In this document: in pieces, positions 1-4,363 of the stretch
How positions within the stretch are numbered: position 1 is the stretch's first letter
How the letters are laid out: every line of letters starts with the position of its first letter
IMG/VR virus record: IMGVR_UViG_2648501338_000010
Direction: 5' to 3' (one strand)
Origin: a virus
Taxonomy: Duplodnaviria; Heunggongvirae; Uroviricota; Caudoviricetes
DNA: 4,536 nt
Program-made: the position numbers and the translations under genes
The notes under the pieces: model-generated
Told to the model about the DNA's origin: nothing
The model's database searches: none
The model's input: only the letters and a program-made list of their open reading frames with translations

Positions 1-43
1 CCCGTTGACGGACTTCAGGGGAAAAACGAGTATTTTTAGTCAT
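1..43 (-). CDS. IS3-family transposase OrfA, first 14 codons only (5' partial in window; gene continues past position 1)
   Basis: ATG at 43..41 preceded by AGAGG 8 nt upstream; translation MTKNTRFSPEVRQR; the frame stays open to the window edge. Confidence 0.7.
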   Translation of the reverse strand, partial: MTKNTRFSPEVRQR

Positions 44-97
44 CCTGTTTACCTCTTTCTCAGGAAGTTTAGTCTCCAGGATTCCCGGGGCGGTTCA
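1..97 (-). mobile_element. Terminal 97 bp of an IS3-family insertion sequence (IS629/IS1203-like), outer end at position 97; element continues beyond window start
   Basis: Minus strand 97->1 reads TGAACCGCCCCGGGAATCCTGGAGACTAAACTTCCTGAGAAAGAGGTAAACAGG then ATG ACT AAA AAT ACT CGT TTT TCC CCT GAA GTC CGT CAA CGG. The TGA-initiated terminal repeat and the MTKNTRFSPEVRQR start match my recollection of the IS629-type left end and OrfA. Identification is from memory, not a search. Confidence 0.75.
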
Positions 98-165
98 ATG
101 TTCTCTGCTTCGATAACTCTGTTGAATGGTTCTCCATTCCATTCACCTGTGACTCGGAAGTGCAT
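98..165 (-). pseudogene. 5' fragment (22 codons, MHFRVTGEWNGEPFNRVIEAEN) of a minus-strand gene apparently interrupted by the IS insertion
   Basis: ATG at 165..163 with GGAG 7 nt upstream; the frame runs straight into the IS terminus at 97/98, after which the reading is IS sequence. Product unknown. A second frame (ATG 137, MENHSTELSKQRT) is a weaker alternative. Confidence 0.3.
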
Positions 166-204
166 TTATCATCTCCATAAAACAAAACCCGCCGTAGCGA
201 GTTC

Positions 205-235
205 AGATAAAAGAAATCCTCGTCAGTGCGAGGAT
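205..235 (-). terminator. Candidate intrinsic terminator for leftward transcription
   Basis: Inverted repeat atcctcg (216-222) / cgaggat (229-235) with 6-nt loop; on the minus strand the stem is followed directly by TTCTTTTAT. Stem is short, so confidence is low. Confidence 0.3.
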
Positions 236-407
236 GCTGTTCATTGCTGCTATACACTTTTTTGCTCTCAACGTAAGCGGTAGCTCATTCTGTTGGGTTG
301 GTGCAGTTGCTTTTAGGAAATGCTATTTACCCCTTAAACGTCGGCTGAAAGAGCTAAAATCCATGCAAAAAATTTACGCAATTTTGTGTATTATTGTGCA
401 GTAAGTA

Positions 408-1010
408 ATGAGCTATTTTCTGCGCAAAAAATGGATGGTAAATTTGTCCGGGGCAGGAAAAATTTTATGGGCGCTAAACATGAAAAAAGATTCGTATCCT
501 TATTTGATTTGCATGACAGTTTCAGGCCTGATCTTTATTTTCCTTTTCTTCTGGTGGCGGGCAGATATTTACAGGGTCACGTTTCTTAATCAGAGTATAT
601 CCCACTATTACATTCTGTTTAGCATGGGAATAGCTTTTCTGTTATCTCTGTTTTGGGTTAAGAAGGGGATAGTAAAACAAAGCGGCTGGAAGAGTCTGTC
701 AGCATACCTTAAGGTTTATGCAGGGATGTGCATATTTGCTGGATTTTTTCTGATTATACCCCTTACAACACTAACTTATTTTTTGCCTGGAGAGACATCG
801 TCTTATGTTGCACCGTATCGGTATACTTCCGGTAGTTCAAAAAGTTGTTCTGGAGCTGAGGTGGATGACCCTGATCTACATGAGAATATTCGCATTTGCT
901 ATCCGTATGGCAATTATGAGTACGATAATATTATCTATGTTGAAAAGAAAATTAATACATTAGGTGCGGTAGTAACATATGCACAGACCGCGCGTGATGA
1001 TACTGAATGA
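408..1010 (+). CDS. Hypothetical inner-membrane protein, 200 aa, three predicted transmembrane helices plus ~75-aa Cys/Tyr-rich C-terminal domain; unrecognised accessory (moron) gene
   Basis: Only long ORF on the plus strand, opposite to all phage early genes. Basic N-terminus (RKK, KK), then hydrophobic stretches LICMTVSGLIFIFLFFWW, ILFSMGIAFLLSLFWV and AGMCIFAGFFLIIPLTTLTYFL, then a soluble tail with Cys in SKSCSG and IRICYPYG. AT-rich codon usage: hand-counted 60-nt blocks give ~25-37% G+C versus ~48% in bet. Hairpin 35 nt after the stop. Start ATG 408 has no strong SD; in-frame ATGs at 435 and 480 are alternatives. Confidence 0.65.
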   Translation: MSYFLRKKWMVNLSGAGKILWALNMKKDSYPYLICMTVSGLIFIFLFFWWRADIYRVTFLNQSISHYYILFSMGIAFLLSLFWVKKGIVKQSGWKSLSAYLKVYAGMCIFAGFFLIIPLTTLTYFLPGETSSYVAPYRYTSGSSKSCSGAEVDDPDLHENIRICYPYGNYEYDNIIYVEKKINTLGAVVTYAQTARDDTE

Positions 1011-1044
1011 GATAGTATATAGCGGGCAAGTTTTAGTTAATTTA

Positions 1045-1078
1045 TCGAGGTAATATAATTTACCTCGACTCGTTTATT
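1045..1078 (+). terminator. Candidate terminator hairpin downstream of the membrane-protein gene
   Basis: Perfect 9-bp inverted repeat tcgaggtaa (1045-1053) / ttacctcga (1060-1068) with loop TATAAT, followed by ctcgtttattct (T-rich but interrupted). Confidence 0.35.
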
Positions 1079-1220
1079 CTGGTATTAATATTTCGCTTTA
1101 CGATCGATTTTTATCTGATGATATCATGCGGTTTTCATATACTGACTTACTGTCTTTTCTCCGTTAGCGATTTTCTCCTGCTCAGCGATGATTTTATCTT
1201 TGGCTTCTAGTTAATTTCGC

Positions 1221-1442
1221 TCACTTCGAACCTCTCTGTTTACTGATAAGTTCCAGATCCTCCTGGCAACTTGCACAAGTCCGACAACCCTGAACGGCCA
1301 GGCGTCTTCGCTCATCTATGGGATCGCCACACTCACAACAATGAGTGGCAGATATAGCCTGGTGGTTCAGGCGGCGCATTTTTATTGCTGTGTTGCGCTG
1401 TAATTCTTCAATTTCTGATGCTGAATCAATGATGTCTGCCAT
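1221..1442 (-). CDS. TraR/DksA-family C4 zinc-finger protein, 73 aa (lambda Orf73-like)
   Basis: ATG at 1442, TGA at 1223..1221. Translation contains CxxC-(17)-CxxC with the family motif CCECGDPIDERRRLAVQGCRTCASCQ. Same size as the TraR homologue I recall being encoded by lambda in this part of the pL operon. Confidence 0.85.
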   Translation of the reverse strand: MADIIDSASEIEELQRNTAIKMRRLNHQAISATHCCECGDPIDERRRLAVQGCRTCASCQEDLELISKQRGSK

Positions 1443-2179: not shown

Positions 2180-2856
2180 CGCCATTGCTCCCCAAATACA
2201 AAACCAATTTCAGCCAGTGCCTCGTCCATTTTTTCGATGAACTCCGGCACCATCTCGTCAAAACCCGCCATGTACTTTTCATCCCGCTCAACCACGACAT
2301 AATGCAGGCCTTCACGCTTCATACGCGGGTCATAGTTGGCAAAGTACCAGGCATCTTTTCGCGTCACCCACATGCTGTACTGCACCTGGGCCATGTAAGC
2401 CGACTTTATGGCCTCGAAACCACCGAGCCTGAACTTCATGAAATCCCGGGAGGTAAACGGGCATTTCAGCTCAAGGCCGTTGCCGTCACTGCATAAACCA
2501 TCGGGAGAGCAGGCGGTGCGCATACTTTCGTCGCGATAGATGATCGGGGATTCAGTAACATTCACGCCGGAAGTGAATTCAAACAGGGTTCTGGCGTCGT
2601 TCTCGTACTGTTTTCCCCAGGCCAGCGCCTTAGCATTAACTTCCGGAGCCACACCGGTGCAAACCTCAGCCAGCAGGGTGTGGAAGTAGGACATTTTCAT
2701 GTCAGGCCACTTCTTTCCTGAGCGGGGCTTTGCTATCACGTTGTGAACTTCTGAAGCGGTGATGACGCCGAGCCGTAATTTGTGCCATGCATCATCCCCC
2801 TGTTCGACAGCTCTCACGTCGATCCCGGTACGCTGCAGGATAATGTCCGGTGTCAT
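2176..2856 (-). CDS. exo: Lambda exonuclease (Red-alpha), 5'-3' dsDNA exonuclease, 226 aa
   Basis: Translation [65 protein letters not shown]... matches lambda Exo as I recall it, full length. Start ATG overlaps the bet stop (ATGA at 2853-2856). Confidence 0.97.
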
Positions 2857-3638
2857 GCTGCCACCTTCTGCTCAGTGGCTTTCTGTTTCAGGAATCCAAG
2901 AGCTTTCACTGCTTCGGCCTGTGTCAGTTCTGACGATGCGCGAATGTCGCGGCGAAATATCTGGGAACAGAGCGGCAATAAGTCGTCATCCCATGTTTTA
3001 TCCAGGGCGATTAGCAGAGTGTTAATCTCCTGCATGGTTTCATCGTTAACCGGAGTGATGTCGCGTTCCGGCTGGCGTTCTGCAGTGTATGCAGTATTTT
3101 CGACAATGCGCTCGGCTTCATCCTTGTCATAGATACCAGCAAATCCGAAGGCCAGACGGGCACACTGAATCATGGCTTTATGCCGTAACATCCGTTTAGG
3201 ATGCGACTGCCACGGCCCCGTGATTTCTCTGCCTTCGCGGGTTTTGAATGGTTCGCGGCGGCATTCATCCATCCATTCGGTAACGCAGATCGGATGATTA
3301 CGGTCCTTGCGGTAAATCCGGCATGTACAGGATTCATTGTCCTGCTCAAAGTCCATGCCATCAAACTGCTGGTTTTCATTGATGATGCGGGACCAGCCAT
3401 CAACGCCCACCACCGGAACGATGCCGTTCTGCTTATCAGGGAAGGCGTAAATTTCTTTCGTCCACGGATTAAGGCCGTACTGGTTGGCGACGATCAACAA
3501 TGCGATGAACTGCGCATCGCTGGCATCGCCTTTAAATGCCGTCTGGCGAAGAGTGGTGATCAGTTCCTGTGGGTCGACAGAATCCATGCCGACACGTTCA
3601 GCCAGCTTCCCTGCCAGCGTTGCGAGTGCTGTACTCAT
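2853..3638 (-). CDS. bet: Lambda Bet (Red-beta) single-strand annealing recombinase, 261 aa
   Basis: Translation [69 protein letters not shown]... matches lambda Bet, full length; starts 5 nt after the gam stop. Confidence 0.97.
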
Positions 3639-4158: not shown

Positions 4159-4291
4159 TTTTTGGGACTCCTGGCTGATTAAGTATGTCGATAAGGCGTT
4201 TCCATCCGTCACGTAATTTACGGGTGATTCGTTCAAGTAAAGATTCGGAAGGGCAGCCAGCAACAGGCCACCCTGCAATGGCATATTGCAT
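4127..4291 (-). CDS. cIII: Lambda cIII (54 aa), inhibitor of FtsH/HflB protease that stabilises CII
   Basis: Not in the ORF track (below its size cutoff). ATG at 4291..4289 with AAGGAG 6 nt upstream; hand translation [54 protein letters not shown], stop TAA 4129..4127. Confidence 0.9.
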   Translation of the reverse strand: MQYAIAGWPVAGCPSESLLERITRKLRDGWKRLIDILNQPGVPKNGSNNYGYPD

Positions 4292-4363
4292 GGTGTGCTC
4301 CTTATTTATACATAACGAAAAACGCCTCGAGTGAAGCGTAATTGGTATGCGGTAACGCCGCGC

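What the first reader, a model, noticed from the sequence alone, without database searches (positions are those of the whole stretch)
283..1080. AT-rich, opposite-strand gene for an unrecognised three-helix membrane protein where lambda carries ea22/ea8.5
The only substantial plus-strand gene in the window sits inside a leftward-transcribed phage operon. It is much more AT-rich than the neighbouring recombination genes and has its own downstream hairpin. It encodes a 200-aa protein with a basic N-terminus, three hydrophobic helices and a Cys/Tyr-rich C-terminal domain that I cannot assign to any family. This is the classic signature of a moron or lysogenic-conversion gene expressed from the repressed prophage, and this part of lambdoid genomes is a known variable hotspot for superinfection-exclusion and anti-phage genes. 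A single membrane protein could be an abortive-infection or injection-blocking effector, but no function can be read from the sequence.
Basis: partly seen in the sequence, partly recalled or inferred. Interest (0 to 1): 0.7.

Follow-up and report, generated by a model that had tools for sequence, protein, structure and literature searches.

The report
Prophage cargo gene: small inner-membrane protein
This is a real, self-contained cargo gene of phage 434-like prophages that encodes a small, uncharacterised inner-membrane protein; the same gene family sits in a known anti-phage hotspot of unrelated P2-like prophages, so it is a good untested candidate for blocking incoming phages.

Summary
Window 480-1010 (+) is a real gene, 99.9% identical to phage 434's 'putative membrane protein'. 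It is AT-rich (38.6% GC against 50-53% for exo/bet/gam) and is followed by a stable hairpin. It replaces ea8.5-ea22 of close lambdoid relatives.

One correction: the conserved start is ATG 480, giving 176 aa, not the 200-codon ORF.

The predicted protein (pLDDT 87) has three membrane helices, N-terminus in and C-terminus out. Its periplasmic domain is a five-stranded small beta-barrel with two invariant cysteines. It evolves under purifying selection (dN/dS about 0.1).

It matches no Pfam, NCBIfam or PADLOC family and no solved structure. It shows no homology to P22 SieA or HK97 gp15.

The family is narrow and enterobacterial. Diverged alleles lie in P2-like prophages between portal Q and gpA, the old/tin defence hotspot. 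Rousset et al. 2022 list it there as 'System #4, 3 TM, 470 occurrences', and it is absent from their tables of tested systems. The Enterobacter cloacae complex carries a syntenic chromosomal orthologue.

The cassette carries its own conserved upstream region and terminator.

The most likely function, inferred and not shown, is prophage-expressed exclusion of superinfecting phages at the inner membrane.

It is a candidate worth testing, not a surprise: a new member of a known kind.

The parts
216..235 (-). Terminator hairpin of the leftward pL transcript (tL4 of the 1990 phage 434 record). It marks the left edge of the replaced segment.
   Evidence: Terminator-like site on the minus strand. M60848 annotates t-L4 at the equivalent position. 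Backbone homology to PhiR11_1 ends at 235.
236..1208 (.). Whole replacement segment. It takes the place of ea8.5 + ea22 of close lambdoid relatives.
   Evidence: blastn against PhiR11_1: the backbone matches window 98-235 and 1209 onwards, with nothing in between.
312..347 (+). Remnant of the sequence that flanks a cos-like core in P2-like prophages. The core itself, about 84 bp, is missing here.
   Evidence: blastn and MAFFT against P2-like loci L014 and L006. That the core is cos is my inference from its resemblance to the P2 cohesive end.
343..479 (+). Conserved non-coding upstream (regulatory) region of the cassette.
   Evidence: About 75% identical to the E. coli P2-like locus, although synonymous sites of the gene are near saturation with pS 0.61.
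374..401 (+). Three 10-bp-phased direct repeats (TTTACGCA / TTTGTGTA / ATTGTGCA). The last two form the 'CII box' TTGT-N6-TTGT annotated in the 434 record.
   Evidence: The pattern occurs once in the window against 0.01 expected. Two to four copies are kept upstream of alleles down to 52% protein identity in P2-like phages. The 434 annotation is.
436..444 (+). Extended -10-like element TGGTAAATT, the candidate promoter of the gene.
   Evidence: TGnTAAATT lies exactly 44 nt before the ATG in the 434-type allele and in the roughly 80% and 70% identity alleles. It is a prediction; no transcript start has been mapped.
480..1010 (+). Coding sequence, 176 aa plus stop. The conserved start is ATG 480.
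   Evidence: Alignment of homologues. In-frame stops upstream in all other loci, and dN/dS about 0.1.
495..785 (+). Three transmembrane helices: residues 6-26, 42-60 and 76-102. The short cytoplasmic loop 61-75 carries +4 charge.
   Evidence: Hydropathy and charge count. AlphaFold2 helices at 5-29, 38-61 and 70-101, pLDDT 87.
786..1007 (+). C-terminal domain, predicted periplasmic. It is a five-stranded small beta-barrel, net acidic, with invariant Cys123 and Cys140 and the motif CSGAxVxDPxL...IxICxPxGxY.
1045..1068 (+). Intrinsic-terminator-like hairpin of the cassette.
   Evidence: 9-bp stem, -12.9 kcal/mol, z = -3.8, followed by a T-rich tail.
1130..1223 (-). Remnants of an ea22-type gene. 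The first five codons (VSEIN) lie at 1209-1223, and a coiled-coil fragment (LEAKDKIIAEQEKIA) lies further down.
   Evidence: Translation and comparison with the ead/Ea22-like pseudogene that abuts the cassette in P2-like locus L022, and with Ea22 of PhiR11_1.

Best explanation
**What it is (well supported).** It is an autonomous accessory ('moron') cassette consisting of its own upstream control region, one gene and a terminator. It points against the pL operon and has replaced ea8.5-ea22 in a 434-like prophage. It has been exchanged with the cos-proximal old/tin hotspot of P2-like prophages.

**The product.** A 176-aa inner-membrane protein with three membrane helices. Its N-terminus is in the cytoplasm. 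A small beta-barrel, probably stapled by a disulfide, faces the periplasm and packs against the first periplasmic loop.

**How it most likely works (inferred).** The lysogen makes the protein constitutively. Its conserved periplasmic face binds a component that acts at the outer face of the inner membrane during genome delivery. That component could be an inner-membrane entry factor or the incoming tape-measure or ejection proteins. Superinfecting phages would then adsorb but fail to get their DNA in (superinfection exclusion). During lytic growth, antiterminated pL transcription runs antisense through the gene and should silence it.
For: **Cassette nature**
- Replacement of ea8.5-ea22 relative to PhiR11_1.
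- 76% nucleotide homology over window 343-1117 with a P2-like locus, including the non-coding flanks.
- AT-richness and a terminator.
- Conserved upstream repeats and an extended -10.

**Hotspot context**
- Alleles of 47-80% identity lie between portal Q and gpA in P2-like prophages of E. coli, Salmonella and Klebsiella. They sit at the position of P2 old and point the same way, opposite to gpA.
- That locus is an experimentally validated defence hotspot, and the family is its fourth commonest entry, with 470 occurrences (PMC9122126).

**Protein**
- A confident 3-TM plus beta-barrel model.
- Positive-inside charge pattern and an acidic C-terminal domain.
- Invariant residues concentrate in the periplasmic loop and C-terminal domain, including two Cys.
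- Purifying selection.

**Retention and analogy**
- The gene is intact in the decayed O157:H7 prophage Sp3 (ECs_0804), where int and bet are pseudogenes.
- It is present in 915 of 5426 complete E. coli genomes.
Against: - No experiment of any kind bears on this family. Expression in lysogens is not shown.
- There is no homology to any known exclusion protein (SieA, HK97 gp15) or to any PADLOC model.
- Not all cargo of the P2 hotspot is defensive. ParM/StbB partition genes and cytolethal distending toxin are there too.
- A syntenic, vertically inherited chromosomal orthologue in the Enterobacter cloacae complex, and scattered chromosomal copies elsewhere, suggest a cellular envelope role that phages may simply have borrowed.
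- Carriage by two unrelated virion types argues against a target specific to one phage's ejection proteins.
- The family was not found by the functional selection of Vassallo et al. or in the DefensePredictor supplements. This is weak negative evidence, because only exact peptide strings were searched.
Confidence: 0.4

Rival explanations
1. A lysogenic-conversion or cellular envelope function unrelated to phage exclusion. The family would be an enterobacterial inner-membrane protein with a periplasmic binding domain, for example a modulator of an envelope process or immunity to a periplasm-acting toxin. Temperate phages would carry it because it benefits the host in some other way.
For: - A syntenic chromosomal orthologue occurs in at least seven Enterobacter species, next to a GGDEF gene and an AI-2E transporter.
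- Chromosomal copies occur between rstA and rstB in Citrobacter, and in Klebsiella and Pseudescherichia. No P2 or lambda marker genes were detected beside them.
- The P2 hotspot also carries non-defence cargo.
Against: - The greatest allele diversity and abundance is in the phage hotspots.
- The Enterobacter orthologues diverge faster than their flanking genes: 63-69% identity between the two Enterobacter groups, against 82-97% for the flanks. That is not typical of a housekeeping envelope protein.
- No toxin or partner gene is consistently adjacent.
Confidence: 0.3
2. An abortive-infection effector. The protein sits inert in the inner membrane and, on sensing infection, oligomerises and depolarises the membrane. 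The cell dies before the phage completes its cycle.
For: - It is a single small polytopic membrane protein in a defence hotspot.
- Membrane proteins in known systems are often suicide effectors, as discussed in PMC9122126.
Against: - There is no sensor domain or partner gene.
- The conserved part is a folded periplasmic domain rather than the helices.
- It is stably carried, single-copy and intact in 17% of complete E. coli genomes.
- There is no match to PADLOC effector models.
Confidence: 0.12
3. A CII-activated gene of the lysogeny-establishment programme. The TTGT-N6-TTGT box annotated in the 434 record is a real CII site. Transcription from it would make the protein, and an RNA antisense to the distal pL transcript, only while lysogeny is being set up.
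For: - The box exists at 384-397 and is unexpected by chance.
- Its geometry relative to a weak -10 (AGCTAT, 13 nt downstream) resembles lambda pRE and pI. This comparison comes from my own knowledge of those promoters, not from a test.
Against: - The same 10-bp-phased repeats are conserved upstream of the gene in P2-like prophages. That P2-like phages have no CII-type activator is my own knowledge, not tested.
- The record's CII boxes come from a consensus pattern scan that is expected to hit several times by chance in a 48-kb genome.
- A conserved extended -10 further downstream offers a factor-independent promoter.
Confidence: 0.08

Closest known systems
[quoted passage not shown]
   Same: A prophage-borne single gene with its own promoter. 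It encodes a small protein (162-164 aa against 176 aa here) predicted to have three membrane helices and to sit in the inner membrane (PMC10883804).
   Different: There is no detectable homology (hhalign probability 0.1%). SieA's conserved motif FxRYPxEAxxFNK is predicted to be cytoplasmic and is absent here. Here the conserved part is a periplasmic beta-barrel. SieA is restricted to P22-like phages, whereas this family occurs in lambdoid and P2-like prophages and in chromosomes.
HK97 gp15 (moron-encoded exclusion protein of a lambdoid phage)
   Same: A moron with its own terminator in a lambdoid phage. [quoted passage not shown]
   Different: gp15 is 62 aa with one membrane helix, and there is no homology (hhalign probability 0.9%). 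It also sits at a different genome position, in the tail gene region.
P2 old / tin (lysogenic-conversion exclusion genes at the cos-proximal hotspot)
   Same: Diverged alleles of this gene occupy the same locus, between cos/portal Q and orf91/gpA, and the same orientation. Like old, the gene is preceded by 10-11-bp-phased short direct repeats upstream of the promoter.
   Different: Old is a cytoplasmic ATPase-nuclease and Tin is a soluble protein. There is no similarity in sequence, fold or location.
'System #4 (3 TM)' of the P2 hotspot catalogue, Rousset et al. 2022, Table S5B; PHROG 1416
   Same: Same protein family. It is 52% identical over 168 residues to the catalogue's representative. 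The PHROG 1416 match has E = 2e-50.
   Different: These are catalogue entries without a function. Its conserved peptides are absent from the tables of systems that the paper tested. PHROG 1416 models only the last 88 residues.
Short NfeD proteins (YbbJ/YuaF type: membrane anchor plus C-terminal OB-fold barrel)
   Same: The overall plan is the same: about 150-175 aa, N-terminal membrane helices and a C-terminal five-stranded small barrel. The resemblance is recalled from knowledge and hinted at by a weak BFVD hit to an NfeD-like protein (rank 18, E = 0.16).

Membership tests
Moron / lysogenic-conversion cassette (in the sense of Juhala et al. 2000) | Present or absent between genes that are adjacent or otherwise syntenic in close relatives | tested here: met
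   PhiR11_1 shares the backbone on both sides (window 98-235 and 1209 onwards) but carries ea8.5+ea22 instead.
Moron / lysogenic-conversion cassette (in the sense of Juhala et al. 2000) | Base composition different from the surrounding genome | tested here: met
   GC is 38.6% and GC3 is 37%, against 50-53% and 54-63% for exo, bet and gam.
Moron / lysogenic-conversion cassette (in the sense of Juhala et al. 2000) | Own terminator | tested here: met
   Hairpin at 1045-1068, -12.9 kcal/mol, z = -3.8, with a T-rich tail.
Moron / lysogenic-conversion cassette (in the sense of Juhala et al. 2000) | Own promoter, active in the lysogen | tested here: inconclusive
   The upstream region is conserved and has an extended -10-like TGGTAAATT and phased repeats. 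The standard -35/-10 scan finds nothing upstream. No transcript data are available.
P22 SieA family | Sequence homology to SieA types A-C, including the motif FxRYPxEAxxFNK | tested here: not met
   hhalign probability is 0.1%. The motif is absent from the sequence.
P22 SieA family | Small inner-membrane protein with three predicted membrane helices | tested here: met
   This is a prediction only.
P22 SieA family | Blocks DNA injection of superinfecting phage | not testable with these tools
   This needs plating, potassium-efflux and DNA-entry assays.
HK97 gp15 family | Sequence homology | tested here: not met
   hhalign probability is 0.9%, over 14 columns of a membrane helix only.
Known anti-phage defence systems (PADLOC-DB 2.0) | Match to any model | tested here: not met
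   No families matched at E up to 1.
Pfam / NCBIfam families, including NfeD | Match above or near the curated threshold | tested here: not met
   Only sub-threshold noise was found, such as DUF6057 at 13 bits against a 29.8-bit cut-off. No NfeD hit appeared among 21 members.
PHROG 1416 / Rousset 'System #4 (3 TM)' | Sequence homology | tested here: met
   E = 2e-50 to PHROG 1416 over residues 113-200 of the 200-aa ORF. 52% identity to the System #4 representative.
PHROG 1416 / Rousset 'System #4 (3 TM)' | Location between gpQ and gpA of P2-like prophages | tested here: met
   Met for the homologues: 14 of 78 IMG/VR loci. It is not met for the window copy itself, which is in a lambdoid prophage.
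CII-dependent promoter (lambda pRE / pI / paQ type) | TTGC-N6-TTGC repeats flanking a poor -35, dependent on CII | tested here: inconclusive
   TTGT-N6-TTGT is present at 384-397. However, the repeats are conserved in P2-like phages. CII dependence is not testable here.

The most novel reading that the evidence does not exclude
The family is a new, widespread single-gene anti-phage barrier that acts from the periplasmic face of the inner membrane. It would use a disulfide-stapled small beta-barrel to jam genome delivery of several unrelated phage types. It would be traded as a promoter-gene-terminator unit between lambdoid and P2-like prophages, and would have been domesticated in the Enterobacter chromosome.
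Probability: 0.3. Interest if true: 0.65.

Novelty: new member of a known kind. Interest (0 to 1): 0.45.

Why it matters
- **Prevalence.** The gene is carried by about one in six complete E. coli genomes, including O157:H7 (Sakai ECs_0804). Its family is the fourth most frequent entry in the P2 defence hotspot.
- **No recorded test.** I found no record that it has been tested.
- **If it blocks genome entry.** It would add a new fold to the short list of inner-membrane exclusion proteins. It would also give a handle on the poorly understood inner-membrane step of phage DNA delivery.
- **Annotation.** Public records give three different start codons. The comparative evidence here settles on ATG 480.
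- **Evolution.** The remnants on either side of the cassette document exchange of cargo between two unrelated temperate phage families.

Tried and rejected
- **Foldseek against BFVD.** Nothing at E <= 0.001. The AFDB library was not available.
- **Profile against PDB sequences.** Nothing significant.
- **Profile search of 1.84 billion representatives.** Only 62 hits, nearly all with the same architecture. Two long repeat proteins, P0124 and P0131, match a roughly 35-residue hairpin weakly and have no informative Pfam domains.
- **Scan of viral contigs for TTGTGCA-N3-TTGTGCA.** The 80 loci read were chance matches. None was next to the family or to an extended -10.
- **Host transcription factor for the repeats.** I tried from memory to assign the ATTGTGCA repeats to a known factor (CRP, DnaA box, MarA/Rob, OmpR/PhoB-type, sigma-E, sigma-54). 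None fitted convincingly, and no claim is made.
- **Literature.** There were no hits for accessions, locus tags (ECs0804) or peptide strings. The 434 genome announcement does not discuss the gene. Brenes & Laub 2025 could not be read.
- **Lipoprotein or signal peptide.** No lipobox is present, and Cys11 is not conserved.
- **Upstream 56-aa ORF (234-404) as a partner gene.** Rejected. It spans the replacement junction, is disrupted in the P2-like loci and is not called by PGAP.
Full report
**Where the window comes from.** From base 98 onward the window is 99.9% identical to phage 434. It is 98-99% identical to phages 2B8 and mEp332. The minus strand carries the early-left operon in lambda order: a TraR/DksA-type zinc-finger gene (1221-1442), small ORFs, orf63, orf60a, exo (2176-2856), bet (2853-3638), gam, kil and cIII. 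The finding concerns the one conserved plus-strand gene. The 434 record calls it 'putative membrane protein' CPT_434_36.

- The ORF 408-1010 exists.
- Its GC content is 38.6% and GC3 is 37%. exo, bet and gam have 50-53% and 54-63%.
- Three segments exceed a 19-residue Kyte-Doolittle mean of 1.6.
- A 9-bp hairpin at 1045-1068 folds at -12.9 kcal/mol (z = -3.8, none of 200 shuffles as stable) and is followed by a T-rich tail.
- The gene is not a chance ORF. There are 74 homologues. Against alleles whose synonymous sites are close to saturation, dN/dS is 0.09-0.14.

**The start codon needs correcting.**
- All diverged homologues begin at the Met that corresponds to ATG 480.
- In every other locus the reading frame upstream of that Met is closed by a stop within 4-12 codons.
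- The product is therefore 176 aa.
- Public annotation disagrees with itself: PGAP uses ATG 408 (200 aa), the 434 record uses TTG 444 (188 aa), and many database entries use ATG 480.

**What the protein looks like.**
- AlphaFold2 with a 21-sequence alignment gives a confident model (pLDDT 87, pTM 0.73). It has helices at 5-29, 38-61 and 70-101, followed by five strands. A sixth short strand (34-36) comes from the first loop and packs onto the sheet.
- The C-terminal 82 residues modelled alone give the same five-stranded barrel (pLDDT 89.5).
- The loop between helices 2 and 3 carries four positive charges and no negative ones. The C-terminal domain is net acidic, with 12 D/E against 6 K/R. By the positive-inside rule the N-terminus and loop 2 are cytoplasmic, while loop 1 and the barrel are periplasmic.
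- Invariant residues cluster in loop 1 (I30, T34, L36) and in the barrel (Y113, Y115, C123-S-G-A, V128, L133, I137, I139, C140, P142, G144, Y146, K156, N159, G162). The helices carry few.
- The two invariant cysteines flank a beta-hairpin. A periplasmic disulfide is likely, but I could not measure distances in the model.

**Family assignment.**
- No Pfam, NCBIfam or PADLOC model matches, and no PDB sequence does either.
- PHROG 1416, of unknown function, matches the last 88 residues.
- Profile comparison with P22 SieA and HK97 gp15 finds no relationship, with probabilities of 0.1% and 0.9%.
- An exhaustive profile search of 1.84 billion cluster representatives finds only 62 proteins, almost all about 170 aa with the same plan. 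The family is narrow.

**Where the family lives.** Three settings emerge.

1. *Lambdoid prophages at the lambda attachment site, next to ybhC.*
   - This is a single, nearly clonal allele, 98-100% identical. It accounts for 63 of 78 IMG/VR loci.
   - It is present in 915 of 5426 complete E. coli genomes.
   - It occurs in O157:H7 Sakai prophage Sp3 as ECs_0804. In O157:H7 the prophage is decayed: int and bet are pseudogenes, and strain 4276 has IS1203 in exo. The gene is nevertheless intact.

2. *P2-like prophages of E. coli, Salmonella and Klebsiella.*
   - Alleles of 47-80% identity lie between portal gene Q and replication gene A, pointing the same way as Q.
   - This is the position and orientation of the P2 exclusion genes old and tin.
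   - It is the cos-proximal hotspot that Rousset et al. showed to be a reservoir of anti-phage systems (PMC9122126).
   - Their Table S5B lists 'System #4, no Pfam, 470 occurrences, 3 TM'. The representative sequence is 52% identical to the window protein.
   - None of the family's conserved peptides occurs in their tables of tested systems. The family was therefore catalogued and apparently not assayed.

3. *Plain chromosomal contexts.*
   - A syntenic orthologue sits next to a GGDEF gene and an AI-2E transporter in at least seven Enterobacter species.
   - Other copies lie in Klebsiella, in Pseudescherichia, and between rstA and rstB in Citrobacter portucalensis.
   - The Enterobacter orthologues are 63-69% identical between the two Enterobacter groups, while their neighbours are 82-97% identical. 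They therefore evolve comparatively fast.

**The gene travels as a unit.**
- Nucleotide homology between the window and an E. coli P2-like locus runs from 343 to 1117 at 76% identity. That covers 137 bp upstream of the start and 107 bp past the stop.
- The upstream non-coding part is as well conserved as the coding part, although synonymous sites are nearly saturated. It is therefore constrained.
- It holds two to four copies of (A/T)T(T/C)GTGCA at 10-bp spacing (window 374-401).
- About 36 nt downstream lies TGnTAAATT, exactly 44 nt before the ATG (window 436-444). This has the form of an extended -10 element.
- The repeats persist in alleles as distant as 52% protein identity.
- The 'CII binding site' marked in the 434 record (384-397) consists of the last two of these repeats. 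They are conserved in P2-like phages, which to my knowledge have no CII. I therefore consider a CII role unproven. The factor that reads the repeats is unknown.

**Relation to lambda's ea22/ea8.5.**
- The close relative PhiR11_1 matches the window at 98-235 and from 1209 onward. In between it carries ea8.5 and ea22 where the window carries the cassette.
- The first five codons of ea22 survive at 1209-1223 on the minus strand, and a coiled-coil ea22-like fragment lies at about 1130-1215.
- In the P2-like loci the cassette is abutted by a truncated ead/Ea22-like pseudogene.
- Window 312-347 matches the flank of a cos-like core in P2-like loci, while about 84 bp including that core are missing.
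- The cassette therefore bears scars from both phage families. It must have moved between them more than once.

**How it most likely works.**
- *Shown:* it is a conserved, selected, mobile single gene for a predicted inner-membrane protein with a conserved periplasmic domain. It sits in two accessory loci, one of which is a validated defence hotspot.
- *Inferred:* it is expressed from its own promoter in the lysogen and is silenced by antisense pL read-through during lytic growth. Its periplasmic face interferes with phage genome delivery at the inner membrane.
- The best analogies are P22 SieA, a 3-TM inner-membrane protein of similar size that blocks injection (PMC10883804), and HK97 gp15. 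These are analogies of kind, not of descent.
- I put this at about 0.4.
- The main rival, at about 0.3, is a non-phage envelope function borrowed by phages. The chromosomal orthologues suggest it.
- Abortive infection (0.12) and a CII-programmed establishment function (0.08) are less likely.

**What is known and what is new.**
- The gene's existence is on record: the 434 annotation, PHROG 1416 and the Rousset catalogue.
- Its function is not. I found nothing on its function in the papers and supplements I could search.
- One relevant paper, Brenes & Laub 2025, could not be read.
- New here are:
  - the corrected start codon;
  - the structural model and topology;
  - the link between the lambdoid copy and the P2-hotspot family;
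  - the conserved control region;
  - the evidence of exchange between the two phage families;
  - the Enterobacter chromosomal branch.

**Verdict.** The finding is a sound candidate rather than a surprise. It is a new member of a known kind, a prophage moron encoding a small inner-membrane protein. Interest is moderate (0.45). It would rise to about 0.65 if a new exclusion mechanism were demonstrated.

Noticed in passing
window 4246-4304 (-): Full-length match to the Rfam family Lambda_thermo, the cIII thermoregulator RNA element. The score is 88.5 bits against a gathering score of 50. It sits at the start of cIII, as in lambda.
   Followed up: no
window 374-401 (+); L006 5903-5931; L233 4453-4482 (-): Short direct repeats phased at 10 bp (ATTGTGCA, 2-4 copies) are conserved upstream of the gene in lambdoid and P2-like copies. 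The promoter of P2 old, at the same hotspot, has three similarly phased ATGCA repeats just upstream of its mapped transcript starts. No known factor could be assigned.
   Followed up: partly
window 312-347 (+) versus L014 4749-4785: The lambdoid copy keeps the flank of a cos-like core of P2-like phages but lacks about 84 bp that include the core (GGGCTGTTCCCCCGTCACC...). This points to acquisition from a P2-like genome followed by deletion.
   Followed up: partly
window 1130-1223 (-); L022 6771-7141 (-): ea22-type remnants flank the cassette both in the window and in P2-like loci. The P2-like loci therefore also carry a scar from a lambdoid exo-xis region.
   Followed up: partly
window 234-404 (+): The 56-aa ORF annotated in the 434 record as a second 'putative membrane protein' spans the replacement junction and the P2-derived remnant. 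It is not conserved in the P2-like loci and is not called by PGAP, so it is probably not a gene.
   Followed up: partly
window 408 / 444 / 480: Public records use three different start codons for the same gene, giving 200, 188 and 176 aa. Comparative evidence supports ATG 480.
   Followed up: yes
window 1-97: The first 97 bases do not match phage 434, 2B8 or mEp332, whereas everything from 98 onward does. The source is therefore a 434-like prophage variant rather than 434 itself. O157:H7 and other E. coli prophages at this site lack 434's ORF114.
   Followed up: no
L008, L025-L028, L032, L033 (Enterobacter spp.), gene at 6001-6510: The Enterobacter cloacae complex has a syntenic chromosomal orthologue, convergent with a GGDEF gene. 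An upstream LysR gene is intact in some species and decayed in others.
   Followed up: partly
protein P0160 (E. coli, P2-type allele): A 112-aa N-terminally truncated form lacking helices 1 and 2 is recorded on at least 1000 contigs. It is either a common disrupted allele or a gene-calling artefact. In the loci I could read, most alleles were intact.
   Followed up: partly
L003 9451-10664; L234 6198-6968 and 10355-11002: The O157:H7 prophage at this site (Sp3 / CP-933K) is decayed. Strain 4276 has IS1203 inside exo, and Sakai has int and bet pseudogenes. The membrane-protein gene stays intact in both.
   Followed up: no
proteins P0124 (3074 aa) and P0131 (706 aa): Two long proteins of unknown origin contain 5-8 weak repeats matching the CSGA...IxIC hairpin of the barrel (E = 2e-6 and 8e-4). 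They have no informative Pfam domains.
   Followed up: partly
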